A stretch of DNA of 64,000 bases from Candidatus Binatia bacterium (GTDB lineage: Bacteria; Desulfobacterota; Binatia; DP-6), in contig JBGQET010000007.1 in NCBI GenBank assembly GCA_041496545.1, forward strand, positions 5,424-69,423, read 5' to 3'. The position numbers and the translations under genes were made by a program. The notes beneath the pieces are model-generated. The model was given only the letters and a program-made list of their open reading frames with translations. It was not told the DNA's origin and ran no database searches. Below are positions 2,600 to 27,407 of the stretch, one piece after another; within the stretch, counting starts at the first letter, position 1, and the number at the start of each line of letters is the position of its first letter.

Positions 2600-2716
2600 C
2601 GTGCGCAGGAAGCCCACCGGCGTTCGGTGGCGCGGGCCCGGGGCGGGTTCGGGTTCGCCGCGCCGGAGTTCGACGAGTACCCGTGGGTTTTCGACGCCCC
2701 GCGCCGCTACCAGAGC

Positions 2717-10334: not shown

Positions 10335-10693
10335 AGCGCGGCGTCGCGGCGTTCGGTTTTCTCGTGGGTCTGCTCGCGCTCCGGCCGCCCCCGGCCGGAG
10401 CGCACGCCTTCCTCGACCACGCGGAGCCGCGGGTGGGGTCGAGCGTCGCGGCGCCTCCCACCCTGACGCTCGTCTTCACCGAGCCGGTCGAAGCCGGCTT
10501 CTCTCACCTCGCCCTCCGTGCGCCGGACGGCAAGCCGGTCGAGACGCCGGCGCTCGAGCAGCCGGCGCCGAACACGCTGCGTGTTGCGCTGCCGGCGCTC
10601 GCGCCGGGCGAGTACACCGTCGAGTGGGGCGTGGTCTCGGTCGACACGCATCCGACCGACGGCCGCTTCAACTTCTCCGTGAAGAAACCGTGA
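10331..10693 (+). CDS. copC: Copper resistance protein CopC (periplasmic copper chaperone)
   Basis: It has a signal peptide followed by the mature N-terminus HAFLDHAEP and a CopC-like beta-sandwich sequence. It is translationally coupled to both neighbours. Confidence 0.75.
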   Translation: MKRGVAAFGFLVGLLALRPPPAGAHAFLDHAEPRVGSSVAAPPTLTLVFTEPVEAGFSHLALRAPDGKPVETPALEQPAPNTLRVALPALAPGEYTVEWGVVSVDTHPTDGRFNFSVKKP

Positions 10694-11514: not shown

Positions 11515-11789
11515 GGCGACGCGCGCTTGCCGTCGTCCTGCTCGCGCTCGTCGCCTGCGGGCGCGACGTCGAGTACGTCGGCGCGGGCGAGGTGGTGTCC
11601 GTCGACGAGCCGCGGCTGCACGTGACGATCCGGCACGAGGACATTCCGGGGCTCATGGGCGCGATGACGATGCGCTTCGCGGTCGGCTCGCCCGACGTCC
11701 TGGCCGGCGTCGAGCCGGGGGCGCACGTCCGCTTCCGGTTGCGGCCCGCGGGCGGCGACTACGTCGTGACGCGGGTCGAGGCCCGCTGA
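11511..11789 (+). CDS. CusF-like periplasmic copper-binding lipoprotein
   Basis: It has a lipobox (LALVACG) and an H…M.M.F motif (IRHEDIPGLMGAMTMRF). The GTG start overlaps the copD stop. Confidence 0.65.
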   Translation: MRRRALAVVLLALVACGRDVEYVGAGEVVSVDEPRLHVTIRHEDIPGLMGAMTMRFAVGSPDVLAGVEPGAHVRFRLRPAGGDYVVTRVEAR

Positions 11790-12492: not shown

Positions 12493-12494
12493 CG

Positions 12495-14123
12495 TCAGAG
12501 CGCGAAGTCGAAGCCGAGGAAGAGACCGTTCCGCCAGTTGCCGAAGGGGTGGCTGCCGCCCGGCGTGAGGTTGACGCTGTCGCGCAGCGAGAGGCTCAGG
12601 AGGGCGGGGATCGGGACCCTAGCCAGATTGTCGCCCTCGAAGACGTACCAGCGCATCTGGAGGTGCAGCACCTGCGACTGCCGCGGGCCCGGCTCGAAGA
12701 CGACGTCGCTCTTGAAGCCGCCGGCGCTCATCCAGTCGTAGCGCACCGACGGCACGAGCGAGTGCGTGAGGCGGTAGTCCACCTCCGCGGTGAGCCCGTC
12801 GGCGCGTCGCTTGAAGCGCCCGGCGAGGCGCGACGGGACGTTGAAGACCTGGTCGTGCATGTAGGCGCCGTAGGTGTCCCACGGGCCGCGGCGCAGGTTC
12901 CAGCCGACGCCCTGGCGGGAGACATCGAGGTCGCGTTGGTTCGTGATCGTGCCGACGCCGAGCGGCGGTGGCGGGCGGTGCTGCGTGACGGGGCCGCCGA
13001 AGTCGCCGAGCGGGATCGACGGCAGCGGCGCCGGCGAGAGGTAGAACACGCGGTACGCCTCCCAGCCGTAGTTGCCGAGCACGGAGACCGAGCCGGTCAG
13101 GCCGTCGCGGTCGCCGAAGTCCCAGCGCAGCATGCCGTACGGCACGGCGGTGTGCAGCCCGTCGGTGAACTCGGGTGCCGCGCCGGTCGTCGTGCCGAGC
13201 TGGTAGAGGAGGTGGGAGGCGAAGAGGCGGCCGTGGAGGTCGAGGCCGGGCGCGGCCTCGGCGTGGTAGAGGGTCGGCTCGGTGGCGAGGAGCGTGTGGT
13301 CGCCGCGCTTGAAGATGCCGAAGAACTTGGCGCCGAAGGCGTAGGGGTTGAGCGGCATGCGGAGGAGGAAGCCGGACTCCGAGGTATCGGCCGGCACGTC
13401 GTGGAAGAGCTGGCGGTCGACGGCGTAGGAGAAGTTGGTCGAGGGGTCGATGCGACCGAACATGATCATGGGGCCGTGACCGACGAGGCCGTCGCCCATG
13501 GTCGCCATGCCGTGCCCGCCGTGGTCCATGTCTCCCATGTCGTGGCCCATCTGCTCGTGGTCCATGTGGGCCATGTCGTGTCCGCCGTGGCCGTGGAGGC
13601 CGAGCAGCATGGGGACGTCGACCATGACGAACGCCTTCTGCATGCCGCCCGTGTTGCTGTTCACGAAGTCGCCGCGCTTGTTGATGTCGGTCTCGTGGAC
13701 GGTGTGCTCGAGCTCGATGAAGAGGCTCGTCGAGGGCGTGAGCGGACCCGCGATGTAGACGCTCGTGTGCTCGGGGACGGCGAAGCCGCCCCGCGAGCCC
13801 GGCGCGTCGTCGAACTGCGAGCGCTCGAACCACTCGCCCCGCGTCCAGATCGCCATGCCCTTGGTGAGCGCGTCCTTCCACGTCGACGGGAACGGCGTCC
13901 ACATCGTGCCCGGCGGCTTGAAGCCGTTCATGTGGAACTCCTCGCCGTAGGCGTTGAGGCGCGGAACGGCGGAGTGGCAGACCCCGCAGGCGAGGTTGTA
14001 GCGACGGGCGAAGGCGGGTAGCGCCGCCGCCGAACGCGCCGTGACGAGGAGAGCGACAAGAGCGAGCAGGCGGCGCGCGAGCATCGGTCGCGCCCGTATA
14101 CCGGCCCGTGCCCCCGGGCTCAA
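12495..14123 (-). CDS. Secreted CxxCH-containing protein with a Met/His-rich copper-binding-like region and a beta-barrel-like C-terminus
   Basis: It has a signal peptide, a CGVCH motif and the tract HGHGGHDMAHMDHEQMGHDMGDMDHGGHGM. The C-terminus is rich in aromatic/Gly strands. Confidence 0.7.
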   Translation of the reverse strand: MSPGARAGIRARPMLARRLLALVALLVTARSAAALPAFARRYNLACGVCHSAVPRLNAYGEEFHMNGFKPPGTMWTPFPSTWKDALTKGMAIWTRGEWFERSQFDDAPGSRGGFAVPEHTSVYIAGPLTPSTSLFIELEHTVHETDINKRGDFVNSNTGGMQKAFVMVDVPMLLGLHGHGGHDMAHMDHEQMGHDMGDMDHGGHGMATMGDGLVGHGPMIMFGRIDPSTNFSYAVDRQLFHDVPADTSESGFLLRMPLNPYAFGAKFFGIFKRGDHTLLATEPTLYHAEAAPGLDLHGRLFASHLLYQLGTTTGAAPEFTDGLHTAVPYGMLRWDFGDRDGLTGSVSVLGNYGWEAYRVFYLSPAPLPSIPLGDFGGPVTQHRPPPPLGVGTITNQRDLDVSRQGVGWNLRRGPWDTYGAYMHDQVFNVPSRLAGRFKRRADGLTAEVDYRLTHSLVPSVRYDWMSAGGFKSDVVFEPGPRQSQVLHLQMRWYVFEGDNLARVPIPALLSLSLRDSVNLTPGGSHPFGNWRNGLFLGFDFAL

Positions 14124-14238: not shown

Positions 14239-14898
14239 GTGGAGGCGACCTTCTGCTTCGTCGATCTCGCCGGCTTCACGGCCCTGACGGAAGCGCACGG
14301 GGATCAGGCGGCGGCGGACCTCGCGCTCGCCTTCGGCAGGCTCGTCGAGCAGGCGCTCCAGGGAGCGGGCCAGGTCGTCGACACCGTCGGAGACGCCGTG
14401 TTCGTGGTGGCCGAGCGGCCGGCGGAAGCGGTGCGGTTCGTCGGCCGGCTCTTCGACCGAGCAGCGACGGAGCCCGATTTCCCCGCCCTCCGTGTCGGCC
14501 TGCACCACGGCGAGGCGGTGGTGCGGAACGACCGGTACTTCGGCACCTCGGTGAACCTTGCGGCACGCGTCGCGTCGCAGGCCGGCGGGGACGAGATCCT
14601 CGCCACCCGCGGGGTCGCGGAGGCGGCACGAGCGGTCGGGATCGACGCCACGTCCCGCGGCACCGTCGCGCTCCGGAACATCCTCGAGCCCGTCGAGCTC
14701 TTCGTCCTGGCGATCGGACGGTTCCCCGAAACCGTGATCGACCCGGTCTGCCGCATGCGCGTGGAGCGGAACGGGGCCGCCGGCCGCCTGCGCTTCCAGG
14801 GCACGGAGTACTTCTTCTGCTCGCTCGACTGCACGGCGCGCTTCGCCGCCCGCCCCGCGGCGTACGCGGCGGGCGAGGCGCCGGCCTCCAGGTCTTGA
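14239..14898 (+). CDS. Nucleotidyl cyclase (class III cyclase homology domain) fused to a C-terminal YHS/TRASH metal-binding domain
   Basis: The cyclase part reads FCFVDLAGFTALTE…TVGDAVFVV…GLHHGEAV…FGTSVNLAARV. The C-terminus reads DPVCRMRV…YFFCSLDC. The start is uncertain, and the GTG at 14239 is the best candidate. Confidence 0.65.
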   Translation: MEATFCFVDLAGFTALTEAHGDQAAADLALAFGRLVEQALQGAGQVVDTVGDAVFVVAERPAEAVRFVGRLFDRAATEPDFPALRVGLHHGEAVVRNDRYFGTSVNLAARVASQAGGDEILATRGVAEAARAVGIDATSRGTVALRNILEPVELFVLAIGRFPETVIDPVCRMRVERNGAAGRLRFQGTEYFFCSLDCTARFAARPAAYAAGEAPASRS

Positions 14899-16085: not shown

Positions 16086-17426
16086 ATGAGGGCCAGGAGA
16101 TCGGAGACACGCGAGGTGCCGGCGAGCCGGCTCCGCCCGCTCCACGTCGGCAAGCGGCCGGCGCTCGTCGTCTGTGCGCTCGCGTGCATGACCGCGAGCG
16201 CGACGCGCCTCGCGCGCGCGGAGGAGGGGCGCCCGACGCTCGCGTCGCTGCTCGAGACCGCGCGGGTCCAGAACGCCGAGATCCGGGCGGCGGAGGCGCG
16301 CTACCAGGCGATGCGCCAGCGTCCCGTCCAGGAGCGCACGCTGCCCGACCCGACCATCGGCGCCCGGTATCACAACGAGAAGACGGACCGCCTCACGCTC
16401 GGTGAGTCCGACTTCTCGTTCCTCGAGTTCTCCGCCGAGCAGGAGGTGCCGTTCCCCGGCAAGCTCGGGCTCCGCGGCGACGTCGCGGCGCGCGAGGCCG
16501 ATCGTGAACGGGCGATGCGTGACGAGACCGTCCTCATGGTCCTCGCCAAGGTCGCGGGCGGCTACGCCGACCTGGCGGCCGTGGACCGCACCAGGACCGC
16601 ACTCGAGCAGAGCGCCGCTACCCTCGACCTCATGGTGCGGCAGGCGGGCGAGAGCTACGGCGTCGGCACGGTGGCGCAGGCCGACGTCCTCCGCGCGACG
16701 CTCGAACGCGCCGCGATCGAGGAGCGGCTCACCATGCTCACCCAGAAGCGGGTCGCCGCCGAAGCGACGCTGAACGTGCTGCTGGCGCGCCCGGCGGCCG
16801 AGCGCGTCGGGCCCGTCGCGCTGCCGGCGACGGTGCCGCCCCTCGAGACGCTGGAGGCCTGGGGGCGGCGCGTTCAGGACGAGGCGCCCGCCGTGCGGGC
16901 GGCACGCGAGGACGTGCTCCGGGCCGGCGCCGCGCTGAAGCTCGCCGAGCGCGAGTACTTTCCCGACTTCGCGCTGATGGGCGGATACACCGATAAGAGT
17001 CGGCTCTTGCCGGAGTGGGAATTCGGCGTTCGCGTGCGTGTTCCGCTCTACTTCTGGCGGCGCCAGGGCCCGGCGGTCGCCGAAGCCGTCCACAACCGGA
17101 CGGCGGCCGAGGAGACGCGCCGGAACACCGCGCTCACGCTCGACGGCCGCCTCCGCGAGCTGCACGCCATGGCCGAGTCCGGGCAGCGGCTCGTCGCGCT
17201 CTACCGCGACACGCTCATCCCGCAGGCGTCGCTCACGCTCGAGTCGACGCGCGCCTCCTACGTAGTCGGCCGCGTCGATTTCCTGACCATGCTGACCGCG
17301 TTCACGAGCCTCCTCGAGTACCGCATTCGGTACGCGGAGACGATGGGGAGCCTCTACCGCGCCCGCGCCGAGATCGGGCCGCTCGTCGGCGAGAGCCCAC
17401 TCGACTGGTGGAAGGAGTCGCCGTGA
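16086..17426 (+). CDS. cusC: TolC-family outer-membrane efflux protein (CusC-like)
   Basis: It has outer-membrane factor coiled-coil repeats. Its stop overlaps the start of the next gene. Confidence 0.8.
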   Translation: MRARRSETREVPASRLRPLHVGKRPALVVCALACMTASATRLARAEEGRPTLASLLETARVQNAEIRAAEARYQAMRQRPVQERTLPDPTIGARYHNEKTDRLTLGESDFSFLEFSAEQEVPFPGKLGLRGDVAAREADRERAMRDETVLMVLAKVAGGYADLAAVDRTRTALEQSAATLDLMVRQAGESYGVGTVAQADVLRATLERAAIEERLTMLTQKRVAAEATLNVLLARPAAERVGPVALPATVPPLETLEAWGRRVQDEAPAVRAAREDVLRAGAALKLAEREYFPDFALMGGYTDKSRLLPEWEFGVRVRVPLYFWRRQGPAVAEAVHNRTAAEETRRNTALTLDGRLRELHAMAESGQRLVALYRDTLIPQASLTLESTRASYVVGRVDFLTMLTAFTSLLEYRIRYAETMGSLYRARAEIGPLVGESPLDWWKESP

Positions 17427-18544
17427 TGCGCACGCTCGCGACGGTGATTCTGGCCGGCGCCGTCACGTGCGCGGCCGCGGCGGAGATCCCGTCGCACGGG
17501 GCGCACGCGGCGCACGAGGGCGCGCAGGTGGCGGTCCCCGGGATGGCCGAGGTCGAGGTGCCCGTCGAGCGCCGGCAGGCGATCGGGGTGCGGACGGCGG
17601 AGGTTGCCCGGCGCACGCTCACGCAGGGCGTTCGCACCGTGGGTCTCGTCGCCGCGGACGAGCGCCGCGTGCGCCGCATCCAGACGAAGGTCTCCGGATG
17701 GGTCGACGAGCTGCTCGTCGCCTACACCGGCGCGCTCGTGAAGGCGGGCGAGCCCATCCTCTCGATCTACAGCCCGGAGCTGGTCGCCGCGCAGCGTGAG
17801 TATCTCCTCGCCCGCCGGGCGGGTGGAGCCGCCGGGGGCTCGAGCGGCCTGCTCGTGCAGTCGGCGCGGATGCGGCTCAGGAACTGGGACCTGACCGACG
17901 CGCAGATCGAGGCGCTCGGGAGGAGCGGGGAGCCGAGGCGCTCGGTCGTCCTCCACTCGCCCATCGCCGGCTACGTGACGCTCAAGCCGGTGACGCAGGG
18001 CATGTACGTGACGCCCGAGATGGAGCTCTACCGCATCACCGACCTCGACGCCGTCTGGATCTGGGCCGATCTCTACGAGAGCGAGATCGAGCTCGTGGCG
18101 ATCGGGCAGACGGCGGCGATCTCGCTCGCGTCGGCTCCCGGACGCACCTTCACCGCCGTGGTGGCGTACGTGAGCCCCACGATGGAGCCCGCCACCCGCA
18201 CGCTCCGCGTGCGCTTCGACATCGACAACCGTGGCCACCCCCTCAAGCCGGGCATGTACGCGACCGTCGTCCTCGAAGCGCCGCTCGGCGAGGTGCTCGC
18301 GCTCCCGGAAGAAGCCGTCATCGACACGGGCGAGCGTCGCGTGGTCTTCGTCGAGACGGCGCCGGGCCGCTTCCAGCCACGCGAGGTCGAGCTCGGCCGC
18401 ACGGGCGAGGGCCACTACGAGGTGCTCGGCGGCCTCGAGGCGGGCGAGCGGGTGGTGGTGAGCGCGCAGTTCCTGCTCGACTCCGAGAGCCGGCTCCGCG
18501 CCGCCGGCCGCGGCCCGGCGCACGCGGGGCACGGAGGCCAGTGA
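17426..18544 (+). CDS. cusB: RND efflux membrane fusion protein (CusB-like)
   Basis: It has the periplasmic adaptor architecture (beta-barrel and lipoyl-like regions). Confidence 0.8.
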   Translation: MRTLATVILAGAVTCAAAAEIPSHGAHAAHEGAQVAVPGMAEVEVPVERRQAIGVRTAEVARRTLTQGVRTVGLVAADERRVRRIQTKVSGWVDELLVAYTGALVKAGEPILSIYSPELVAAQREYLLARRAGGAAGGSSGLLVQSARMRLRNWDLTDAQIEALGRSGEPRRSVVLHSPIAGYVTLKPVTQGMYVTPEMELYRITDLDAVWIWADLYESEIELVAIGQTAAISLASAPGRTFTAVVAYVSPTMEPATRTLRVRFDIDNRGHPLKPGMYATVVLEAPLGEVLALPEEAVIDTGERRVVFVETAPGRFQPREVELGRTGEGHYEVLGGLEAGERVVVSAQFLLDSESRLRAAGRGPAHAGHGGQ

Positions 18545-18548
18545 GGCG

Positions 18549-21500
18549 ATGGAACGGCTGATCGAGTTCTGCGGCCGCCGGCGCGCGCTCGTCTTCCTGG
18601 CGACGGGCCTCTTCGTAGCGTGGGGCGTCTGGGCCATTCGGCGGACGCCCGTCGACGCCCTGCCCGACCTCTCCGACACGCAGGTCATCGTCTTCACCGA
18701 GTGGATGGGCCGCAGCCCGAACCTCGTCGAGGACCAGATCACTTACCCGATCGTCACCACCTTCCTCGCCGCGCCCCACGTGAAGGTCGTCCGCGGCTTC
18801 ACGATGTTCGGCATGTCCTTCGTCTACATCGTCTTCGAGGACGGGACGGACATCTACTGGGCGCGGAGCCGAACGCTCGAGTACCTCGTGAAGCTCCAGG
18901 GACGCCTCCCGCCCGGCGTCACGCCCCAGATCGGGCCCGATGCGACCGGCCTCGGCTGGGTCTTCGAGTACGCGCTGGTCGACGACACCGGCCAGCACGA
19001 CCTCCAGCAGCTCCGGAGCTTCCAGGACTGGTACCTCCGGTACTGGCTCTCCTCCGTCCCGGGCGTCGCCGAGGTCGCCGGCGTCGGCGGGTACGAGAAG
19101 GAATACCAGATCGAGCTCGACCCGGTGCGGCTCCAGGCCTTCAACGTGTCGATCGGCGACATCGTGCAGGCCGTGCGGATGTCGAACGGCGACGTCGGCG
19201 GGCGGGTGATCGAGCTGGCGGAGCACGAGTACGCCGTGCGCGGCCGCGGCTACATCCAGTCCCGCGACGACCTGGCGAGCATCGCGGTCACGACGAACGC
19301 GGCCGGCACGCCGGTCCGGCTCGGCGACCTGGCGCGGATCCAGGTCGGCGGGGCGATCCGCCGCGGTTTCGCCGAGCTGGACGGACTCGGCGAGACGGTG
19401 GGCGGGATCGTCGTCATGCGCTTCGGCGAGAACGCGCTCGACGTGATCGAGCGGGTGAAGGCGAAGCTCGAGGAGATGAAGGCCGCCTTCCCGCCGGGCG
19501 TCCGGATCGTCACCACGTACGACCGCTCGGATCTCATCCGCGCCTCGGTGGCGACGCTCCGCGACAACCTCGTGCAGGTCATGGTCGTCGTGTGTCTCAC
19601 CGTCGTCGTCTTCCTCTTCCACGTGCGCTCCGCGCTCGTCCCGGCGATCACGCTGCCGGTCGCCGTCGTCCTCTCGTTCATCCCGATGGCCTACATGGGC
19701 CTCACCACCAACATCATGTCGCTGGCGGGGATCATCATCGCGGTCGGCGACATGGTCGACGCGGCCGTCGTGCTGGTGGAGAACGCCCACAAACGCCTCG
19801 AGCACGCGGGCCCCGACGCCGACCGCACGGCGGTCGTGATCGGCGCCGCCAAGGAGCTCGGCCCGCCGATCTTCGGGTCGCTCCTCGTCATCACGATTGC
19901 CTTCCTCCCGGTCTTCACGCTCCAGGCGCAGGAGGGCCGGCTCTTCAAGCCGCTCGCGTACACGAAGACCTTCTCGATGGCGTTCGCCTCCGTGCTCTCG
20001 GTGACGCTCGTCCCCGCGCTCATGGTGACCTTCGTGCGCGGCCGCATCCGCCCGGAGCGGGAGAACCCCGTGAACCGGGCCGTCATGGCCGCCTATCGGC
20101 CCGTGCTGCGCTTCTGCCTCGAGCGGCGGCGGCTCCTGATCGCGGCCGTCGTGCTCGCGCTCGGCGTCACGGTGGTGCCGTTCTTTCGGCTGGGCTCGGA
20201 GTTCATGCCGCCGCTCTACGAGGGTTCGCTTCTGTTCATGCCGATCACCGTCCCGGGCATCTCGATCGAGGAGGCGAAGCGCCTCGTCCAGGAGCAGGAC
20301 CGCCGGCTGAAGGAGTTCCCGGAGGTGGAGACGGTCTTCGGCAAGGCAGGCCGCGCCGAGACGCCGACCGACCCGGCGCCGCTCTCGATGATCGAGACCG
20401 TGGTGGCGTTGAAGCCGCGCACGGCGTGGCGGCCGGGCATGACGTGGGAGCGGCTCGTCCGCGAGATGGACGCCGCCGTCGCCATGCCGGGGCTCCAGGC
20501 GGCGTGGACGATGCCGATCAAGGCGCGGGTCGACATGCTGACGACCGGCATCCGCACGCCCGTCGGCGTCAAGGTCTTCGGCCCCGACCTCGAGGAGATC
20601 GCCCGCGTCGGCGAGTCGCTCGAGAACATCCTGCGCGACGTGCCCGGCACGCGATCGGTGTACGCGGAGCGGGAGCTCGGCGGCTTCTTCATCGACTTCG
20701 TCCCGGACCGGGCCGCGATCGCGCGCTACGGGCTTCGCCTGATGGACGTCATGAACGTCGTCGAGACGGCGATCGGAGGGCTCGACATCGACACCACCAT
20801 CGAGGGCCGCGAGCGCTACCGGGTGAATGTCCGCTACCCGCGCGAGCTGCGCGACACGCCCGAGGAGCTGGCGCGCGTGCTCGTGCCCATTCCCGCGCAG
20901 TCGGGCGGGCTCGGGCCCGCGAACGAAGGTCCCATGGACGGGACGCCGCGTCCCGGCGCCGACGCCATGAGCGGGGGACGCGTCGCGCACGTCCGCCTCG
21001 GGCAGCTCGGCCGGATCACCGCCGCCATGGGCCCCCCGATGATCAAGGACGAGGGCGGGTCGCTCACCGGCTGGGTCTACGTGGACACGTCGCGCAGCGA
21101 CCTCGGCGGCTACGTCGCGGAGGCGAAGCGCGCCGTCGCGCGTGAGCTCCGGCTGAAGCCCGGCTACTACCTCCGCTGGACGGGCACCTACGAGTTCCTC
21201 GAGCGGATGCAGGCGCGGATGCGGATCGTGATCCCGCTCACGGTGGGGATCATCCTGGCGATCCTCTTCGTGAACTTCGGCGGGCTCGCGCAGGCGCTGC
21301 TCGTGCTGTTCTCGGTGCCCTGCGCGGCGATGGGCTCGATCTGGCTCCTGTGGCTCCTTGGCTTCAATACGTCGGTGGCCGTGTGGGTCGGCATGATCGC
21401 GCTCCTCGGCGTTGCGGCCGAGACCGCCTCGATCATGGTGATCTACCTCGACGAGGGCTACGCGCGCTGGCAGGCCGACGGCCGCATCCACACCACGCGC

Positions 21501-21752
21501 GACCTGATCGAGATGGCGATGGAGTCCGCGGTGCTCCGCGTCCGTCCGCTCCTCATGACCGTCGCGATGAACATCTTCGGGCTCATCCCGGTCATGTTCG
21601 ACACCGGCATCGGCTCCGACGTCGCGAAGCGGATCGCCGCGCCGCTCTGGGGTGGCCTCGTCTCGCTCACGCTGCTGACGCTCGCCGTGATCCCGGCCCT
21701 GTACGTGATTTGGCGCGAGCGGCAGCTCCGCCACGCGGAGGCACGGCCGTGA
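18549..21752 (+). CDS. cusA: Heavy-metal efflux RND transporter, CusA/CzcA family
   Basis: It is 1067 aa. The N-terminal 400 aa are collinear with and very similar to E. coli CusA (…PVDALPDLSD.QVI…GPDATG.GW.FEYALVD…). Confidence 0.9.
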   Translation: MERLIEFCGRRRALVFLATGLFVAWGVWAIRRTPVDALPDLSDTQVIVFTEWMGRSPNLVEDQITYPIVTTFLAAPHVKVVRGFTMFGMSFVYIVFEDGTDIYWARSRTLEYLVKLQGRLPPGVTPQIGPDATGLGWVFEYALVDDTGQHDLQQLRSFQDWYLRYWLSSVPGVAEVAGVGGYEKEYQIELDPVRLQAFNVSIGDIVQAVRMSNGDVGGRVIELAEHEYAVRGRGYIQSRDDLASIAVTTNAAGTPVRLGDLARIQVGGAIRRGFAELDGLGETVGGIVVMRFGENALDVIERVKAKLEEMKAAFPPGVRIVTTYDRSDLIRASVATLRDNLVQVMVVVCLTVVVFLFHVRSALVPAITLPVAVVLSFIPMAYMGLTTNIMSLAGIIIAVGDMVDAAVVLVENAHKRLEHAGPDADRTAVVIGAAKELGPPIFGSLLVITIAFLPVFTLQAQEGRLFKPLAYTKTFSMAFASVLSVTLVPALMVTFVRGRIRPERENPVNRAVMAAYRPVLRFCLERRRLLIAAVVLALGVTVVPFFRLGSEFMPPLYEGSLLFMPITVPGISIEEAKRLVQEQDRRLKEFPEVETVFGKAGRAETPTDPAPLSMIETVVALKPRTAWRPGMTWERLVREMDAAVAMPGLQAAWTMPIKARVDMLTTGIRTPVGVKVFGPDLEEIARVGESLENILRDVPGTRSVYAERELGGFFIDFVPDRAAIARYGLRLMDVMNVVETAIGGLDIDTTIEGRERYRVNVRYPRELRDTPEELARVLVPIPAQSGGLGPANEGPMDGTPRPGADAMSGGRVAHVRLGQLGRITAAMGPPMIKDEGGSLTGWVYVDTSRSDLGGYVAEAKRAVARELRLKPGYYLRWTGTYEFLERMQARMRIVIPLTVGIILAILFVNFGGLAQALLVLFSVPCAAMGSIWLLWLLGFNTSVAVWVGMIALLGVAAETASIMVIYLDEGYARWQADGRIHTTRDLIEMAMESAVLRVRPLLMTVAMNIFGLIPVMFDTGIGSDVAKRIAAPLWGGLVSLTLLTLAVIPALYVIWRERQLRHAEARP

Positions 21753-24484
21753 CGACCGACACGCGCTGGCACGCGAAGGTCCCCGCCGACATCGCGCGCG
21801 AGCTTGGCACCGACCTCGTGCGCGGTCTCGACCCGGCGGAAGCGGCGGGCCGCCTCGCGCGCGACGGCCGCAACGAGCTCGAGCGCGGCGAGGCCGCCTC
21901 GCCGTGGTCGAGCTTCGTGGGGCAGTTCAAGAGCCTCGTCATCTGGGTCCTCATCGGGGCGGCCGTCATCTCGGGGCTGCTCGGTGAAGCCGTCGACGCG
22001 GGGGCGATCCTCGCCATCGTGGTGCTGAACGCGCTCATCGGCTTCGCCCAAGAGTACCGCGCCGAGCGCGCCGTCGCCGCGCTCGCGCGGCTGGCGGCGC
22101 CGCGGGCGCGCGTGCTTCGGGGCGGGCACGCGGCCGTCGTTCCCGCCGCCGAGATCGTGCGCGGCGACGTCCTCGTCCTCGACGCTGGCGATCTCGTGGG
22201 CGCGGATGCACGCCTCTTCGACGCCTCGGCGCTTCGCACGACGGAGGCGCCGCTCACCGGTGAGTCCGAGCCGGTGGACAAGCAGACCACTCCATGCCCT
22301 CCCGGGACCGCGCTCGCCGATCGGCGGAACATGGTCTTCCTCGGCACGAGCGTGGCGGGCGGCTCCGGCCGTGCGGTGGTGGTGGCGACGGGGATGGCGA
22401 CCGAAGTCGGACGCATCGCCTCGCTGCTCGAGACCGCGTCGAGCGGGGAGACGCCGCTCCAGCGCAAGCTCGACCAGGTCGGCCGGCGCCTGCTGTGGGC
22501 CTGCCTCGGCATCGTCGTGGTCGTCTTCCTGCTGGGGGCGCTGCGCGGCATCGCCCTCGGGGAGATGTTTCTCGGCGCGGTGAGCCTCGCCGTGGCCGCC
22601 ATCCCCGAGGGCCTGCCTGCCGTGGTGACGATCGCGCTCGCCGTCGGCGTGTCACGCATGGCCCGTCGCAACGCGCTCGTCCGCCGGCTGCCGTCGGTCG
22701 AGACGCTCGGCTGCGCGCAGGTGATCTGCACGGACAAGACGGGGACCCTGACCGTGGGCGAGATGACCGTCCGGCGGATCGTGACGGCCGAGCGGGTGGT
22801 CGCGGTCACGGGGGAGGGCTACGCGACCGAGGGGGGTTTCTTCCAGGACGGTGTCGCGATCGACCCGACCGGCGCGGCCGTGACGCGCGCGCTCCTGGAG
22901 GCCGCCGCAGCGTGTAACGATGCGGAGCTCGTGCGGCGCGACGGCCGCGTCGGCATCGTCGGCGACCCGACCGAGGCCGCGCTCCTGGTCGCGGCGGCGA
23001 AGGCCGGCATTGGCCGCGACAGCATCGAGACGGCGATGCCGAGGTTGGGCTCGATCCCCTTCGACTCCGACCGGAAGCGGATGACGGTGATCCGTCGCCG
23101 GGACGGCGTGCCGTGGGCGTTCGTCAAGGGCGCGCCCGAGGTGCTCCTCGAGCGCTGCACCGCCGTGCGGACGGAGCAGGGCGCGGAATCGTTGCGCGAG
23201 GTGGACCGGGCGCGCATGACCGAGGCGGCGGCGCTCATGGCGAACGAGGCCCTCCGCGTCCTCGCGCTTGCCGAGCGGCGGCTTCCCGGCGAGCCTCGTG
23301 CGGGCGCCGCCGACGAGGTTGAGCGCGACCTGGTCCTCCTCGGCCTGGTCGGTCTGCAGGACCCGCCGCGTGCCGAGGCGCTCGAGGCCGTCCGGAAGTG
23401 CAAGCGCGCGGGCATCCGCACGGTGATGATCACCGGCGACCATCCCGAGACCGCCCGCGCCATCGCACGCGAGCTCGAGATCCTGGAGCGCGGCGACGAG
23501 GCGATCGTCGGCCACGAGCTCGATGAGCTGTCGGACGCGCAGCTCGCCGAGCGCGTCGGTCGCGCTTCGGTGTACGCGCGCGTGACGGCCGAGCACAAGC
23601 TGCGGATCGTGCGTGCATGGAAGGCGAAGGGTGCCGTGGTCGCGATGACGGGCGACGGCGTGAACGACGCGCCGGCGCTGAAGGAGGCCTCGATCGGGAT
23701 CGCCATGGGCATCGCGGGCACCGAGGTCACCAAGGAAGCCGCGGACATGGTGATCACGGACGACAACTTCGCCTCGATCGTCGCCGCCGTCGAGGAGGGC
23801 CGCGGCATCTACGACAACATCGCCAAGACGCTCGCCTACCTGCTCGCCGGGAATGCCGGCGAGCTGCTCGTCACCCTGCTGGCCGTGCTCGTCGGCTGGC
23901 CGTTCCCGCTCCTCCCCATCCAGCTTCTCTGGATCAACCTCGTGACGGACGGCCTGCCGGCGCTCGCTCTCGCGACGGACCCGATCGACCCCGAGGTGCT
24001 GTCCCGGCCGCCACGGCGTCCCGAGGCGCAGCTCATGGACCGGCGCTTCCTCGGGCGGCTCGCCCTCACCGGGATTCTCACCGCCGCCGTCGCACTCGTC
24101 GGCTTCGCCTACGAGTATCGCATCGACCGCAACGTGATGGACGCGAGGAATGCGGCCTTCTCGGTGCTGGTGATCGCGGAGCTCCTGCGCTCCTTCGGCG
24201 CCCGGAGCGAGACCCGGACGGTCTGGGAGCTGGGGCTGCTGTCGAACGCGCGCCTCTTCGCCATCGTGGCCGTGAGCTTCGGCCTGCAGCTGACGATTCA
24301 CCACACGCCCGGGCTCGAAGTCGTGTTCGGGACGGAGCCGATCTCGCTCGGGCAGTGCGTCGCCTGGATCGCGCTCGGCGCGGTGCCGTCGATCCTGCTC
24401 GAGGGAATGAAGATCGTGGGCGCGCGCGGCTGGATCGACCCGGGCGCCGCGACAGCGCTCGGCGGCCGCCAGGGGGCGCGATGA
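21749..24484 (+). CDS. P2-type (SERCA/PMCA-like) cation-transporting P-type ATPase
   Basis: It has ICTDKTGTLT, the PEGLPAVVTIALAVG helix-4 motif (not CPC), TGDGVNDAPAL and MITGD. The GTG start overlaps the cusA stop. Confidence 0.85.
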   Translation: MTTDTRWHAKVPADIARELGTDLVRGLDPAEAAGRLARDGRNELERGEAASPWSSFVGQFKSLVIWVLIGAAVISGLLGEAVDAGAILAIVVLNALIGFAQEYRAERAVAALARLAAPRARVLRGGHAAVVPAAEIVRGDVLVLDAGDLVGADARLFDASALRTTEAPLTGESEPVDKQTTPCPPGTALADRRNMVFLGTSVAGGSGRAVVVATGMATEVGRIASLLETASSGETPLQRKLDQVGRRLLWACLGIVVVVFLLGALRGIALGEMFLGAVSLAVAAIPEGLPAVVTIALAVGVSRMARRNALVRRLPSVETLGCAQVICTDKTGTLTVGEMTVRRIVTAERVVAVTGEGYATEGGFFQDGVAIDPTGAAVTRALLEAAAACNDAELVRRDGRVGIVGDPTEAALLVAAAKAGIGRDSIETAMPRLGSIPFDSDRKRMTVIRRRDGVPWAFVKGAPEVLLERCTAVRTEQGAESLREVDRARMTEAAALMANEALRVLALAERRLPGEPRAGAADEVERDLVLLGLVGLQDPPRAEALEAVRKCKRAGIRTVMITGDHPETARAIARELEILERGDEAIVGHELDELSDAQLAERVGRASVYARVTAEHKLRIVRAWKAKGAVVAMTGDGVNDAPALKEASIGIAMGIAGTEVTKEAADMVITDDNFASIVAAVEEGRGIYDNIAKTLAYLLAGNAGELLVTLLAVLVGWPFPLLPIQLLWINLVTDGLPALALATDPIDPEVLSRPPRRPEAQLMDRRFLGRLALTGILTAAVALVGFAYEYRIDRNVMDARNAAFSVLVIAELLRSFGARSETRTVWELGLLSNARLFAIVAVSFGLQLTIHHTPGLEVVFGTEPISLGQCVAWIALGAVPSILLEGMKIVGARGWIDPGAATALGGRQGAR

Positions 24485-25581
24485 CCACCGACCCCGCGTC
24501 CGAGCCCGCGAGGCGGCCGGCCGGTGCGCTCGGCGCACGCCTCGCCCTCGCGCTGGGCGGCGGCGCCGCGCGGGGCCTCGCCCACATCGGCGTGCTCGAG
24601 GTGCTCGAGCGCGAAGGCATTCGCCCCGACTGCATCGTCGGGAGCAGCATCGGCGGTCTGATCGGAGCGCTCAGCGCGAGCGGCCTGCGCTCGGGGGAGA
24701 TCCGGCGGCTGGCGCGAGGCTTCCACTTCCCGCGCTGGTTCGTTCCCGGGGCCGCGGTGCGGTGGGAGTCCGTCTTCGCCCCTGCGGTCCCGATCCTCTC
24801 CGGCCTGTCGTTCGAGGAGCTGGTGACGCCGCTGGTGGTCACGGCCGTCGACCTCGAGGCCGGCACCCAGGTAATTCTCCGCGCGGGGTCCCTGCTTCCC
24901 GCGGTGCGGGCGACTTGTGCGGTGCCCGGCGTGCTCCCGCCCGAGAAGATCGGGAGCCGCTGGCTCGTGGACGGGGGGCTGGTGAACATTCTGCCCGTGG
25001 ACGTCGCGTGGCTGGTCGAGCCGGACGTGGTGATCGCCGTCAAGGTCGGTGCCACGCGCGCTCGCCATGTCCCCCAGCTCGGCTGGCGCCTCACCGGTCT
25101 CCTCTCGTGGCTGGGTAGCGTGGTGCCGAACCCGGCCACCGCGAAGGTGTCGTTCGAGGTTCTCGTCCGCGCCGCGGAGATCGTCCTCGATCGGCAGACC
25201 GCGCTCGCCACCGCGATGACCGGTCCCGAGGTCCTCGTCGAGCCGGAGCTGCACGACATCGGGCTGCGCGACTTCGATCGGCTCGACGACGCCGTCAAGG
25301 CAGGGCGCCGCGCCGCCGACGAAGTCTTGCCGGAGCTCCTCCGACTGCTCGAAGCACCGCCCAGCTCGGCCGTGCGCAGCCAGCTCGTGTTGACGCTCCG
25401 TTTCGACCCGGTGTGCGCCATGGTGGTCAGCCCCCCTCGTGCCCGCGCGCGGGCGGAGCACGCCGGTACGACGTACTACTTTTGCTCGGCGAATTGCCGC
25501 GATTGCTTCGAGCGCGACCCGGAACGGTTCCTCACCGGCAAGGCGCTCGCGTTTCTCACCAGCCGGGGGGCGCCGCAGTGA
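24481..25581 (+). CDS. Patatin-like phospholipase fused to a C-terminal YHS/TRASH domain
   Basis: It has the GGGAARG oxyanion motif, GSSIGG nucleophile and a DGG motif. The C-terminus reads DPVCAMVV…YYFCSANC. The ATG start overlaps the ATPase stop. Confidence 0.85.
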   Translation: MTTDPASEPARRPAGALGARLALALGGGAARGLAHIGVLEVLEREGIRPDCIVGSSIGGLIGALSASGLRSGEIRRLARGFHFPRWFVPGAAVRWESVFAPAVPILSGLSFEELVTPLVVTAVDLEAGTQVILRAGSLLPAVRATCAVPGVLPPEKIGSRWLVDGGLVNILPVDVAWLVEPDVVIAVKVGATRARHVPQLGWRLTGLLSWLGSVVPNPATAKVSFEVLVRAAEIVLDRQTALATAMTGPEVLVEPELHDIGLRDFDRLDDAVKAGRRAADEVLPELLRLLEAPPSSAVRSQLVLTLRFDPVCAMVVSPPRARARAEHAGTTYYFCSANCRDCFERDPERFLTGKALAFLTSRGAPQ

Positions 25582-25964
25582 CGGGCCATGGGCGAACAGG
25601 CGACGCCGATCTCCGAAGCGGCCGCCGGCCGCGGCTCCCGCGTCATGGCGGGGGTGCAGCGGCACCACGTGACGCTCGGCGCGTTCCCGCCGTCGGCGAC
25701 GGGATTGAGCTTCCGATTCAGTGTGGGCATCCCGACTGCGAATGCCGCGACGCGTGCTGCCGAGTACGCCGGACGACTCGTCGCTGCGTTCCCAGCCTTG
25801 AAGGCTGGGACGGCGTTTCGTCTCATACTTGAGAACGTCGGGGCGGGGGTCCCGCCATGCAGGTGCGTGCCGGGCGGCGGTCCAATTGCAGAAGCACCGA
25901 GGTGGGCCCCTGGCTTTCGAGGATACCCGTGCACGACCGAGGACCAGAACAACCTGCCTCCCGC

Positions 25965-26726
25965 ATGCGATTCAAGGTCGGCGTCATGGGAGGCGCCACC
26001 GGCGTAGCGTCGCGAGAGATACTCGAGAAAGCTCACGCGCTCGGACGCGCGATCGCCAAGACCGGCTGCGTCCTCGTCACCGGCGGATGTCCGGGCCTCC
26101 CGCTCGCCGCCGCCTGCGGGGCGAAGGAGGAGGGAGGCTTCGTGGTCGGCATCTCACCCGGGCTGAGCCTCGACGAGCACGTCTACAAGTACGGCTCTCC
26201 AACCGACTTCCATGACGTCCTGATCTTCACGGGCAGCGGGCTCATGGGACGGGAGGTCGTCAACATCCGCAGCTCCGACATCGTGGTGATCATCGGCGGG
26301 CGCAGCGGCACGCTCGGCGAGCTTGCCATCTCCTACGACGAGGGGAAGCTGATCGGCGTGCTGACCGGCACCGGCGGGATCAGCGACATGGTCGCCGACA
26401 TCCTCGCCGCGTGCGCCAAGGACACCGGCGCGCGGGTCGTCTACGACGCGGATCCGGAGCGCCTGGTCGACCGGCTTCTGCGCCTCTACCGCTCGGAGCA
26501 CCGGCGAAAGCCGTCGTGCTTCTGCGCGGAACGCCGGCCGGACGAGGGAGAGCCCGCCACCCGCGTGTTCCGCGACCCGGTGTGCGGGATGCCGCTCGTC
26601 GCGACCTCCGCGGCCGCGGAGCGTACGGCCGGCGGGGAGCGCCATCTTTTCTGCTCGGTGGCATGTGCCAATCGGTTCGATGCGAATCCGGGTGCCTACA
26701 CCGACGCGAGGGAGCGCCATGCCTGA
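25965..26726 (+). CDS. LOG/TIGR00725-family Rossmann nucleotide-binding protein fused to a C-terminal YHS/TRASH domain
   Basis: It has the GGxGTxxE motif ([12 protein letters not shown]). The C-terminus reads DPVCGMPL…HLFCSVAC. Confidence 0.75.
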
Positions 26727-26899: not shown

Positions 26900-26996
26900 C
26901 AAGCACCCGGCGGGCCACCCGGGAGGGCTCTATTCGATGAAAGGCCGATGCAACGAGCCGCGCGGCCAAAAGCGCGGCGGCAGGAGGAACACGACG

Positions 26997-27407
26997 ATGA
27001 CGCAGAGGAGCTTCACAGTCTGGACGATAGTTGCGCTCGGCATCCTGGGCACGGCGCTGGCGCGAGCCGGGAACGTTTCCGCACCTCCGTCCGGCTACAC
27101 CGGTAAGCTCGACGACCGGCAGATGATCTGCATGACGCAGGACACGGTCCAAGCCAAGCCTGGCCTCGCAGAGGAGTACAAGGGCAAGCGCTACTACCTC
27201 TGCTGCGAGGGGTGCCGCGCCGCCTTCGAGGCGAGCCCGGACCGCTACGCGCGCGCGACCGACCCCGTGAACGGCCAGCAGGTGGACAAGGCCGACGCCC
27301 CAGTCTACGCGTACGGCGGGCGGGCCTACTACTTCAGCTCGGCGGAGACACAGGCGGCGTTCGCGCGGGAGCCGGGGCGCTATCTGAAGGGCTCGCCGGC
27401 GCCGTGA
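26997..27407 (+). CDS. Secreted protein with two tandem YHS/TRASH-like domains
   Basis: It has a signal peptide, then KRYYLCCEGCRAAFEASPDRY and DPVNGQQV…GRAYYFSSAETQAAFAREPGRY. The second domain lacks the Cys residues. Confidence 0.65.
   Translation: MTQRSFTVWTIVALGILGTALARAGNVSAPPSGYTGKLDDRQMICMTQDTVQAKPGLAEEYKGKRYYLCCEGCRAAFEASPDRYARATDPVNGQQVDKADAPVYAYGGRAYYFSSAETQAAFAREPGRYLKGSPAP

What the first reader, a model, noticed from the sequence alone, without database searches (positions are those of the whole stretch)
16086..25581. cusCBA-like RND efflux operon translationally coupled to a P2-type (non-CPC) ATPase and a patatin gene
The gene order is cusC–cusB–cusA–ATPase–patatin, with overlapping junctions at 17424–17428, 21749–21752 and 24481–24484. 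Copper or silver RND systems normally partner with P1B CopA-type pumps. Here the ATPase carries PEGL in helix 4 (P2A/P2B-like, Ca2+/Mn2+/H+ type) and no CPC/CPH motif. A phospholipase is co-transcribed. This combination is unusual.
Basis: seen in the sequence. Interest (0 to 1): 0.6.

Follow-up and report, generated by a model that had tools for sequence, protein, structure and literature searches.

The report
Copper efflux operon with calcium-type pump
A copper/silver efflux operon (cusCBA) carries, fused into the same transcription unit, a calcium-pump-type ATPase and a lipase with a copper-sensing tail, and the pump-plus-cusCBA pairing recurs in many bacterial phyla although I found no description of it in the literature I could search.

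Summary
Five + strand genes run 16086-25581: cusC-like OMP, cusB-like adaptor, cusA, a P-type ATPase and a patatin-like lipase. They are joined by TGATG, GTGA and ATGA overlaps and one 4-nt gap.

- **CusA** is a true Cu(I)/Ag(I) type: E=0 to E. coli CusA, and the M573/M623/M672 cluster and D405 are kept.
- **The ATPase** is a complete P2A pump nearest LMCA1, SPCA1 and SERCA. It has no metal-binding N-domain and no CPC. All seven SERCA Ca2+-site positions are occupied SERCA-style. It is the only P-type ATPase in the window.
- **The pairing is not chance.** Of 80 ATPase relatives from different species, 19 have a CusA-like RND within 10 kb and 11 have it directly adjacent. Of 80 CusA relatives, 20 carry this P2A pump and 10 carry a P1B pump. 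A Legionella plasmid carries ATPase-TolC-MFP-CusA.
the patatin has a C-terminal YHS domain, shown to act as a copper sensor in a Mycobacterium phlei cyclase. The operon sits in a 19-kb copper island that also encodes cyclase-YHS, SLOG-YHS and a periplasmic YHS protein.

What the P2A pump transports, and why it travels with cusCBA, is unresolved. My best guess is Ca2+-type cation export co-expressed with copper efflux. Interest is moderate to high; this is a new variant of known kinds.

The parts
16086..17426 (+). cusC-like outer-membrane factor (446 aa)
   Evidence: Pfam OEP 3.8e-33. GC3 is 0.93. Signal peptide with an ALAC lipobox-like motif.
17426..18544 (+). cusB-like periplasmic adaptor (372 aa; alternative GTG start at 17423)
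   Evidence: HlyD_D23 1.8e-74. Aligns to E. coli CusB residues 83-394 at 6e-44. The start overlaps the cusC stop.
18549..21752 (+). cusA, a Cu(I)/Ag(I)-type HME-RND pump (1067 aa)
   Evidence: TIGR00914 scores 1072 bits against a cut-off of 701. E=0 to E. coli CusA 3k07, with M573, M623, M672 and D405 aligned and conserved.
21749..24484 (+). P2A (SERCA/LMCA1-like) P-type ATPase (911 aa)
   Evidence: Cation_ATPase_N, E1-E2_ATPase, Cation_ATPase and Cation_ATPase_C. Best PDB hits are LMCA1 at 7.7e-181, SPCA1 and SERCA. Ion-site residues were read. GTGA overlap with cusA.
24481..25581 (+). cytoplasmic patatin-like lipid hydrolase with a C-terminal YHS (copper-sensor-type) domain (366 aa)
   Evidence: Patatin 3.8e-25 and YHS 6.6e-11. 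GGGAARG, GSSIG and DGG motifs, and the D plus 3 Cys of YHS, are present in the translation. More than 120 clusters share the same two-domain architecture. ATGA overlap with the ATPase.
25790..25810 (+). 9-bp GC-rich hairpin after the last gene; candidate operon terminator
   Evidence: RNA fold of 25740-25850: MFE -53.9 kcal/mol, z = -2.69. The tail is T-poor, so this is tentative.
10331..11789 (+). copC-copD-cusF genes (context: copper island)
   Evidence: Pfam CopC 1.1e-21, CopD 1.5e-20, CusF_Ec 6.8e-19.
12495..14084 (-). secreted protein with a CxxCH motif and a Met/His-rich stretch (context)
   Evidence: Translation. No Pfam or NCBIfam hit.
14239..14898 (+). class III nucleotide cyclase with a C-terminal YHS domain (context)
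   Evidence: Guanylate_cyc 3.6e-11 and YHS 1.5e-10. Same architecture as the Cu-activated M. phlei cyclase (PMC4626032).
14972..15334 (+). small secreted helical protein of a family that often accompanies cusCBA
   Evidence: Homologues in 24 of 80 CusA-anchored loci, often between cusA and the P2A ATPase. Conserved DH / HC / HR positions.
25965..26726 (+). SLOG/LOG-like (LDcluster4) enzyme with a C-terminal YHS domain (context)
   Evidence: LDcluster4 3.9e-45 and YHS 3.6e-8. Homologues lie near the ATPase in L002 and L005 and near patatin-YHS in L087.
26937..27407 (+). secreted protein with two YHS domains (context)
   Evidence: YHS 4.7e-18 in two stretches. Signal peptide in the translation.

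Best explanation
This is a five-gene, translationally coupled copper-stress operon inside a roughly 19-kb copper island (copCD-cusF to the PIG-L gene, about 9.4-28.8 kb).

CusCBA removes Cu(I)/Ag(I) across the envelope; this is shown by homology and by the intact three-methionine site.

The fourth gene is a catalytically complete SERCA-like P2A ATPase with both oxygen-ligand cation sites intact. I infer that it exports a hard, Ca2+-type cation from the cytoplasm in exchange for protons. Ca2+ is the most likely substrate, possibly Mn2+ as well. I infer that it does not transport copper.

The ATPase is a recurrent, partly mobile partner of cusCBA. The two pumps are therefore made together. I infer that this keeps cytosolic and envelope divalent-cation balance when Cu/Ag stress perturbs the membrane.

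The fifth gene is a cytoplasmic patatin-like lipid hydrolase. By analogy with the characterised cyclase-YHS, I infer that its C-terminal YHS domain binds copper and switches the enzyme on when copper reaches the cytoplasm, so that membrane lipids are remodelled or repaired.

The neighbouring cyclase-YHS and SLOG-YHS genes would be parallel copper-gated enzymes.
For: - **Operon anatomy and Shine-Dalgarno sequences:**
- **CusA identity and Met triad:**
- **ATPase family and motifs:**
- **ATPase ion site:** M4 E, M5 N and E, M6 N/T/D and M8 E are all present. LMCA1 has A and R, and SPCA1 has S..A and M, at the site-I positions.
- **No soft ligands:** the window's ATPase subgroup has no conserved Met, Cys or His in the transmembrane ion path.
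- **Linkage seen from the ATPase side:** 19 of 80 species have a CusA-like RND within 10 kb and 11 have it adjacent; the figure is 11 of 43 when both flanks are at least 4 kb. In one search, 19 linked RNDs keep the Met triad (14 from the scan, plus the hand-picked L002-L004).
- **Linkage seen from the CusA side:** 20 of 80 loci carry the P2A pump against 10 of 80 with a P1B pump.
- **Same module elsewhere:** Binatus, Methylomirabilota, Methylosarcina (there next to CusRS, a multicopper oxidase, CopB and a P1B pump) and a Legionella plasmid.
- **Copper context in the window:** CopC, CopD, CusF, a Met/His-rich protein and four YHS proteins.
- **YHS as a copper sensor:** Cu2+ at 1-10 uM switches on the M. 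phlei cyclase-YHS (PMC4626032). All three cytoplasmic YHS domains here keep the Asp and three Cys.
- **Patatin-YHS distribution:** it is a large family, and 4 of 6 sampled members lie within 3 kb downstream of an OEP-MFP-RND triad.
- **Precedent for P2A substrates:** bacterial P2A pumps exporting Ca2+/Mn2+ are documented (S. pneumoniae MgtA, reviewed in PMC11672702).
Against: No experiment or expression data bear on any step. A physiological reason why Ca2+ export should be tied to copper efflux is not established, so the "homeostasis under Cu stress" step is a guess. The ATPase falls just below NCBIfam's equivalog cut-offs for both PMR1-type (700.5 against 798.3) and SERCA-type (655.4 against 703.4) Ca2+ pumps, so it is not a curated member of either. 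Tight, ancient operon linkage with a Cu(I) pump would more naturally suggest a shared substrate. No regulator is visible in the island, so copper induction is inferred from context only. Cu activation of a patatin through YHS has never been shown.
Confidence: 0.45

Rival explanations
1. The P2A ATPase is the inner-membrane feeder of CusCBA. On this reading it is a functional analogue of CopA/SilP that moves Cu(I)/Ag(I) from the cytoplasm to the periplasm through a non-canonical site, and CusCBA then expels the metal.
For: Translational coupling is conserved across phyla. The P2A pump is linked twice as often as a P1B pump in this CusA clade. No P1B ATPase is present anywhere in the 64-kb window. 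The two-step P-type plus RND relay is the established logic for Cu and Zn (own knowledge: CopA/CusCFBA, ZntA or CzcP/CzcCBA). A more distant subgroup of the family carries conserved His/Cys next to the ion site.
Against: The window protein's ion site consists only of oxygen ligands identical to SERCA's, and it has no conserved Met, Cys or His in the transmembrane path. There is no HMA/HMBD domain. P2A and P1B pumps co-occur in some loci (L005, L104), so the P2A pump does not simply replace CopA. The rest of the genome was not seen and may encode CopA.
Confidence: 0.15
2. The ATPase detoxifies a different toxic cation that mimics Ca2+, such as Cd2+, Pb2+, excess Mn2+ or a lanthanide. The module would then be a two-metal resistance cassette.
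For: Ca2+-type sites of P2A pumps accept Mn2+ (SPCA1 and pneumococcal MgtA; PMC11672702). The module looks mobile: a resolvase lies upstream in Binatus, it is on a Legionella plasmid, and proteins are 65-80% identical across phyla. It sits beside multi-metal genes in Methylosarcina.
Against: The linked RND is specifically the Met-triad Cu/Ag type in 19 of the linked loci, not a Czc-type divalent pump. Nothing in the sequence singles out any of these metals.
Confidence: 0.2
3. The ATPase and patatin genes are passengers in a mobile metal island. Adjacency reflects hitch-hiking rather than a shared function.
For: There are signs of mobility (resolvase, plasmid, integrase, IS elements). Gene order varies: the ATPase lies before or after cusCBA, and on the opposite strand in L002.
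Against: The linkage persists down to 47-50% ATPase identity in distant phyla and with different CusA clades. It is often kept with overlapping or near-overlapping reading frames. It is recovered independently from both anchors at about 25%, far above what one to a few HME-RND genes per genome would give by chance (inference).
Confidence: 0.07
4. The cyclase, patatin and SLOG genes form a CBASS/Pycsar-like anti-phage signalling system that happens to lie next to cusCBA.
For: The domain triad of nucleotide cyclase, patatin effector and SLOG sensor resembles defence systems. There are weak PADLOC and NCBIfam hits to phospholipase effectors and PycC.
Against: The hits are partial (about 55 residues, E 1e-6 to 1e-2) and far below family cut-offs. 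Each enzyme carries its own YHS metal domain. Patatin-YHS recurs next to HME-RND pumps and multicopper oxidase genes rather than defence genes.
Confidence: 0.03

Closest known systems
E. coli CusCFBA with CopA, and the plasmid Sil system (silCFBA with silP)
   Same: There is a tripartite Cu(I)/Ag(I) RND pump with the CusA three-methionine site and D405. A P-type ATPase is associated with it; in Sil it is encoded next to it.
   Different: The ATPase here is P2A (PEGL, Ca2+-type oxygen site, Cation_ATPase_N/C domains), not P1B (CPC, HMA domain). cusF is not in the operon and lies about 4 kb upstream. The region of CusB that carries the N-terminal methionine site has no counterpart.
SERCA, LMCA1 and SPCA1 (P2A Ca2+ or Ca2+/Mn2+ ATPases)
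   Same: The domain set and catalytic motifs match. The best structural-database hits are LMCA1 at 7.7e-181 and SPCA1 at 8e-178. The cation-site residues match SERCA's two-site pattern.
   Different: LMCA1 and SPCA1 have only one site, with A/R or S/A/M at the site-I positions. The window pump scores below NCBIfam equivalog cut-offs. None of the characterised pumps is encoded in a copper-efflux operon.
Mycobacterium phlei class IIIc adenylyl cyclase with a C-terminal YHS domain (Linder 2015, PMC4626032)
   Same: A C-terminal YHS domain with a conserved Asp and three Cys is fused to an enzyme. The window's cyclase-YHS (14239-14898) has the same architecture.
   Different: In the operon the YHS domain is fused to a patatin lipase, and next door to a SLOG/LOG-like enzyme. 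Copper gating of these enzymes is untested.
RssA-type patatin-like phospholipases
   Same: The GGGxxG oxyanion loop, the GxSxG serine and the DGG aspartate are present. The best NCBIfam hit is RssA at 3.8e-33.
   Different: The score is far below the RssA cut-off (115 against 272). The protein carries an extra YHS domain and sits in an HME-RND/copper gene context.

Membership tests
CusA-type (Cu/Ag) HME-RND | Score above the curated cut-off of the CusA/CzcA family model | tested here: met
   TIGR00914 scores 1072 bits against a cut-off of 701.45. E=0 to E. coli CusA.
CusA-type (Cu/Ag) HME-RND | Three-methionine Cu(I)/Ag(I) site (E. coli M573, M623, M672) and the proton-relay D405 | tested here: met
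   All four residues align and are identical. The TM4 motif is AVGDMVDAAVVLVEN.
CusB adaptor | CusB-type barrel-sandwich and hairpin domains | tested here: met
   HlyD_D23 at 250 bits and HlyD_D4. Aligns to CusB residues 83-394. The NCBIfam CusB subfamily cut-off is not reached (165.7 against 390).
CusB adaptor | N-terminal methionine metal site that accepts Cu from CusF (E. coli M49/M64/M66; own knowledge) | tested here: inconclusive
   The alignment starts at E. coli residue 83. The short N-terminal segment has one Met and three His.
P1B heavy-metal ATPase (CopA/SilP) | CPC/CPH-type transmembrane motif and an HMA/HMBD N-terminal metal-binding domain | tested here: not met
   M4 reads AIPEGLP. 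There is no HMA/HMBD hit. P1B models score far below cut-off, for example TIGR01511 at 154.5 against 397.
P2A Ca2+-ATPase (SERCA/PMR1 type) | P-type catalytic motifs (DKTGT, TGES, GDGVND) with Cation_ATPase_N and Cation_ATPase_C domains | tested here: met
P2A Ca2+-ATPase (SERCA/PMR1 type) | Ca2+-site residues equivalent to SERCA E309, N768, E771, N796, T799, D800 and E908 (numbering from own knowledge) | tested here: met
   AIPEGLP, AGNAGE, NLVTDGLP and IAELL were read against the LMCA1 and SPCA1 alignments and across 84 family members. SERCA itself aligned only through M6, so the M8 equivalence rests on the LMCA1 R795 and SPCA1 Asp column.
P2A Ca2+-ATPase (SERCA/PMR1 type) | Score above NCBIfam equivalog cut-offs | tested here: not met
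   PMR1-type scores 700.5 against 798.3. SERCA-type scores 655.4 against 703.4.
P2A Ca2+-ATPase (SERCA/PMR1 type) | Ca2+-dependent ATP hydrolysis and transport | not testable with these tools
   This requires biochemistry.
Patatin-like phospholipase | Pfam Patatin above cut-off, with the GGGxxG, GxSxG and DG[GA] catalytic motifs | tested here: met
   89.7 bits against a cut-off of 27.7. GGGAARG, GSSIG and VDGGL are in the translation.
YHS/TRASH metal-binding domain | Pfam YHS above cut-off, with the conserved Asp and three Cys proposed as Cu ligands (PMC4626032) | tested here: met
   42.5 bits against a cut-off of 30.3. The segment reads DPVC...FCSANC. Copper binding itself was not testable.
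CBASS / Pycsar defence systems | Full-length matches to a defence cyclase and a cognate effector | tested here: not met
   Only partial, weak PADLOC hits. CBASS_lipase scores 20.7 bits against a cut-off of 200.

The most novel reading that the evidence does not exclude
A clade of SERCA-like P2A ATPases has been recruited as a dedicated, co-evolving component of Cu/Ag RND efflux systems. The recruitment could work by handling the metal itself in a non-canonical way, or because Ca2+-type cation or proton movement is mechanistically needed for copper efflux or envelope protection. In parallel, YHS domains would define a set of copper-gated enzymes (cyclase, patatin lipase, LOG-like hydrolase) that form a post-translational copper-stress response.
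Probability: 0.25. Interest if true: 0.8.

Novelty: new variant of a known kind. Interest (0 to 1): 0.62.

Why it matters
Textbook copper resistance pairs CusCBA with a P1B CopA-type pump. Here, and in about a quarter of sampled relatives from many phyla, the operon partner is a Ca2+-pump-type P2A ATPase. In this CusA clade that pairing is twice as frequent as a P1B pump. Either bacterial copper defence has an unrecognised dependence on Ca2+-type cation transport, or a P2 ATPase has an unexpected substrate. Both possibilities are directly testable in culturable carriers such as Methylosarcina fibrata or the Legionella plasmid. The patatin-YHS, SLOG-YHS and cyclase-YHS proteins extend the single biochemical precedent for YHS as a copper switch to new enzyme classes. 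This points to copper-gated lipid and nucleotide chemistry.

Tried and rejected
- **Heavy-metal ligands in the ATPase.** I looked for CPC, an HMA domain and conserved transmembrane Met/Cys/His. None is present in the window's subgroup.
- **A second, P1B-type ATPase in the window.** A six-frame scan for DKTGT/GDGxND found only the P2A gene.
- **Riboswitch or other RNA leader** (for example a Mn/Ca yybP-ykoY element). There are no Rfam matches in 9-30 kb.
- **Sigma-70 promoters and intrinsic terminators.** The scans were uninformative in this 72% GC DNA: 0 promoters, and terminator hits at the level expected by chance. Only a hairpin after the patatin gene stood out.
- **Anti-phage defence reading** of cyclase, patatin and SLOG. 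Rejected on the PADLOC result and on gene context.
- **Plasmid database search.** It gave one informative hit, a Legionella plasmid at 58% identity; the rest were below 50%.
- **Literature.** Nine full-text searches found the YHS-cyclase paper. They found no description of the P2A-cusCBA linkage or of patatin-YHS. The library lacks most subscription journals, so absence is not proof.
- **Organism identity.** It was not recovered; cluster look-up returned no taxon names.


Full report
**Observation**

The window is about 72% GC, so raw ORF lists are crowded with spurious frames. A GC3-based gene call leaves one clean + strand series:

| Coordinates | Length |
|---|---|
| 16086-17426 | 446 aa |
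| 17423/17426-18544 | 372 aa |
| 18549-21752 | 1067 aa |
| 21749-24484 | 911 aa |
| 24481-25581 | 366 aa |

The junctions read directly from the DNA are TGATG at 17424-17428, a 4-nt gap at 18545-18548, GTGA at 21749-21752 and ATGA at 24481-24484. Each is preceded by a purine-rich Shine-Dalgarno-like run. A 9-bp GC-rich hairpin at 25790-25810 follows the last gene. The next gene starts only at 25965.

**What the five genes are**

Pfam and NCBIfam identify the following:
- an OEP outer-membrane factor;
- a CusB/CzcB-type adaptor;
- a CusA/CzcA-family RND pump (1072 bits against a cut-off of 701);
- a P-type ATPase with Cation_ATPase_N, E1-E2_ATPase, Cation_ATPase and Cation_ATPase_C;

The RND aligns end to end with E. 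coli CusA (E=0). The Cu(I)/Ag(I)-binding methionines M573, M623 and M672 and the proton-relay D405 are all conserved. It is a genuine Cu/Ag pump, not a Czc-type divalent pump. The adaptor aligns with E. coli CusB residues 83-394. The N-terminal segment that carries CusB's methionine site in E. coli has no counterpart here.

**Classifying the ATPase**

The best solved relatives are Listeria LMCA1 (7.7e-181), human SPCA1 (8e-178) and then SERCA (9e-147). P1B models score far below their cut-offs, and there is no HMA/HMBD domain and no CPC. DKTGT, TGES, KGAPE and GDGVND are present.

| Helix | Window | LMCA1 | SPCA1 |
|---|---|---|---|
| M4 | AIPEGLP | – | – |
| M5 | AGNAGE | AGNLGA | STSIAA |
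| M6 | NLVTDGLP | NLVNDSLP | NIIMDGPP |
| M8 | IAELL | Arg at the E position | Asp at the E position |

From my own knowledge of SERCA1a, its ligands are E309, N768, E771, N796, T799, D800 and E908. The window protein therefore has the full two-site SERCA pattern, made only of oxygen ligands.

A scan of 84 aligned family members found no conserved Met, Cys or His in the transmembrane ion path of the window's subgroup. A more distant subgroup (below 52% identity; Omnitrophota, Aminicenantes, Planctomycetota) has Gln at the M8 position and conserved His/Cys on M5 and M8. I record this but did not pursue it.

The protein scores just under NCBIfam's equivalog cut-offs for PMR1-type and SERCA-type pumps. 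It is a P2A pump of Ca2+ type, but not a curated member of either equivalog.

**Is the juxtaposition chance?**

It is not.
- *Sequence conservation.* Homologues of the ATPase at 65-79% identity occur in Binatia, Methylomirabilota, Methylococcales, Nitrotoga and Hyphomicrobium.
- *Hand-picked contexts*:
  - a 99% relative has identical downstream genes;
  - a 79% relative has cyclase-YHS, cytochrome c, the ATPase, a methyltransferase and a SLOG gene next to an oppositely oriented cusCBA;
  - Binatus has OEP-CusB-CusA-ATPase in the same order, behind a resolvase;
  - Methylomirabilota has ATPase-OEP-CusB-CusA;
  - Methylosarcina fibrata has CusRS, cytochrome c, YHS-SLOG, a multicopper oxidase, CopB, the ATPase, a P1B ATPase and a Czc-type triad.
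- *Plasmid.* A Legionella plasmid carries ATPase-TolC-MFP-CusA with overlapping reading frames.
- *Unbiased scan from the ATPase* (one genome per species). Of 80 relatives at 46-70% identity, 19 have a CusA-like RND within the fetched flanks and 11 have it directly adjacent on the same strand. The count is 11 of 43 when both flanks are at least 4 kb. In one search, 19 linked RNDs keep the Met triad (14 from this scan, plus the hand-picked L002-L004).
- *Reciprocal scan from CusA in metagenomes*. Of 80 loci, 20 carry this P2A ATPase and 10 carry a P1B ATPase (7 against 4 of 25 with both flanks at least 4 kb).

Genomes hold only one to a few HME-RND genes (own knowledge). About 25% co-occurrence within 10 kb, seen from both anchors and across at least eight phyla, is therefore far above chance. 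The ATPase is linked with different CusA clades. For example, L002 has 79% ATPase identity but only 42% CusA identity on the other strand. This argues for repeated selection of the pairing rather than a single inherited accident.

**Surroundings**

The operon lies in a copper island. In order, the island contains:
- an unknown gene (9435-10334);
- copC, copD and cusF (10331-11789);
- a cytochrome c, and a secreted CxxCH protein with a Met/His-rich stretch, both on the minus strand (11791-14084);
- a class III cyclase with a C-terminal YHS domain (14239-14898);
- a small secreted helical protein (14972-15334);
- a His-rich protein with a weak DUF2946 match (15522-15944);
- the operon itself;
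- a SLOG/LOG-like enzyme with a C-terminal YHS domain (25965-26726);
- a secreted protein with two YHS domains (26937-27407);
- a PIG-L deacetylase (27450-28442).

The P2A gene is the only P-type ATPase in the 64 kb. No regulator gene is evident in the island.

**The patatin-YHS protein**

It has no signal peptide. It keeps the patatin catalytic motifs GGGAARG, GSSIG and DGG, and the YHS Asp and three Cys. The fusion is a large family: more than 120 clusters at 57-78% identity, all with both domains.

Only the 99% relative keeps ATPase-patatin adjacency. Four of six sampled family members lie within 3 kb downstream of an OEP-MFP-HME-RND triad. Some of these also sit beside a multicopper oxidase, DUF411 or P1B pumps. 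One member sits next to SLOG-YHS and one is isolated.

The one biochemical precedent for YHS is the M. phlei class IIIc adenylyl cyclase. Its C-terminal YHS domain makes the enzyme switch on at 1-10 uM Cu2+ (PMC4626032). The window's own cyclase-YHS has that architecture. By analogy, patatin-YHS and SLOG-YHS are candidate copper-gated enzymes. This step is inferred, not shown.

**Mechanism**

*Shown by sequence:*
- a Cu/Ag-type CusCBA;
- a catalytically complete P2A pump with Ca2+-type sites;
- a competent patatin with a metal-sensor-type domain;
- tight translational coupling between the genes;
- recurrent linkage of each accessory gene with HME-RND pumps.

*Inferred:* the operon is a copper-stress unit. 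CusCBA clears Cu(I)/Ag(I). The P2A pump exports a Ca2+-type cation and takes up protons. The patatin is activated by cytoplasmic copper to remodel or repair membrane lipid.

The weakest step is the reason why a Ca2+-type pump should accompany copper efflux. I rank the alternatives as follows:

| Reading | Confidence |
|---|---|
| Ca2+/Mn2+-type export co-expressed with Cu efflux | 0.45 |
| Export of a toxic Ca2+ mimic (Cd, Pb, Mn, lanthanide) | 0.2 |
| Non-canonical Cu/Ag feeder for CusCBA | 0.15 |
| Hitch-hiking in a mobile island | 0.07 |
| Defence system | 0.03 |

The feeder model is attractive on genomic logic. It is contradicted by the all-oxygen ion site and by the co-occurrence of P1B pumps in some loci.

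**Comparison with known systems, and novelty**

Every part belongs to a known family. The combination, however, does not appear in what I know of Cus/Sil/Cop systems. Nine full-text searches also found no description of it. That library omits most subscription journals. I therefore rate it a new variant of known kinds: a conserved cusCBA plus P2A-ATPase module, with patatin-YHS as a second recurrent accessory.

It would surprise a metal-transport specialist. It also opens a concrete, testable question about what a SERCA-like pump does in copper resistance. Interest is 0.62.

Noticed in passing
window 14239-14898, 25965-26726, 26937-27407: Besides the patatin, three further YHS-domain proteins lie in the same island: a class III cyclase-YHS, a SLOG/LOG-like (LDcluster4, TIGR00725-like) enzyme-YHS, and a secreted protein with two YHS domains whose second copy has lost the cysteines. 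SLOG-YHS homologues recur near the P2A ATPase or patatin-YHS in L002, L005, L087 and L118.
   Followed up: partly
window 14972-15334: A 120-aa secreted helical protein with no Pfam or NCBIfam hit belongs to a family found in 24 of 80 CusA-anchored loci, often in the order cusA, this gene, P2A ATPase. The alignment shows invariant DH..A..YE, HC and HR positions and a signal peptide or lipobox. It could be an unrecognised periplasmic metal-binding partner of Cus systems.
   Followed up: partly
window 12495-14084 (- strand): A 529-aa secreted protein with a CxxCH heme motif near the N-terminus and a Met/His-rich stretch (HGHGGHDMAHMDHEQMGHDMGDMDHGGHGMATMGD). It has no family hit. A di-heme-type cytochrome c gene lies immediately downstream on the same strand.
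   Followed up: no
window 15522-15944: A small His-rich protein (AAAHHHAAVTHERGGVHRHAAHDAERPADAGHDHD...CC) with a weak DUF2946 match lies directly upstream of cusC. The gene call is weaker than for its neighbours (GC3 0.81).
   Followed up: no
window 18549-21752, CusA residues 783-814: There is a 32-residue Gly/Pro-rich insertion (AQSGGLGPANEGPMDGTPRPGADAMSGGRVAH) relative to E. coli CusA, between the two aligned blocks.
   Followed up: no
loci L026-L085 (ATPase relatives below 52% identity): A second subgroup of the ATPase family (Omnitrophota, Aminicenantes, Planctomycetota, Brocadia) has Gln instead of Glu at the M8 site. It also has conserved His696/Cys701 on M5 and Cys/His on M8 (LLSCNxGEI, CSQLFHS). 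Several members are also directly downstream of a Met-triad cusA. These soft ligands beside the ion site could mean a different substrate.
   Followed up: partly
L086 (Legionella sp. MW5194 plasmid NZ_CP045733.1, 149222-161287): The plasmid operon ATPase-TolC-MFP-CusA continues, with overlapping genes, into an MBL-fold hydrolase, a thymidine phosphorylase family protein and ribose-phosphate pyrophosphokinase. This is a nucleotide-metabolism trio, reminiscent of the SLOG/LOG theme elsewhere.
   Followed up: no
L002, L004, L087, L089, L171, L172: Other genes recur around the P2A ATPase, patatin-YHS and cusCBA: a UbiE-like methyltransferase of about 200-217 aa, a GH57 glycoside hydrolase, MgtC, NmeDI_C-domain proteins and a cytochrome bc-type cluster.
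   Followed up: no
window 1298-4402 (- strand): A 1034-aa protein whose C-terminal 410 residues are a cytochrome P450 (7.8e-90). The N-terminal 600 residues have no Pfam match.
   Followed up: no
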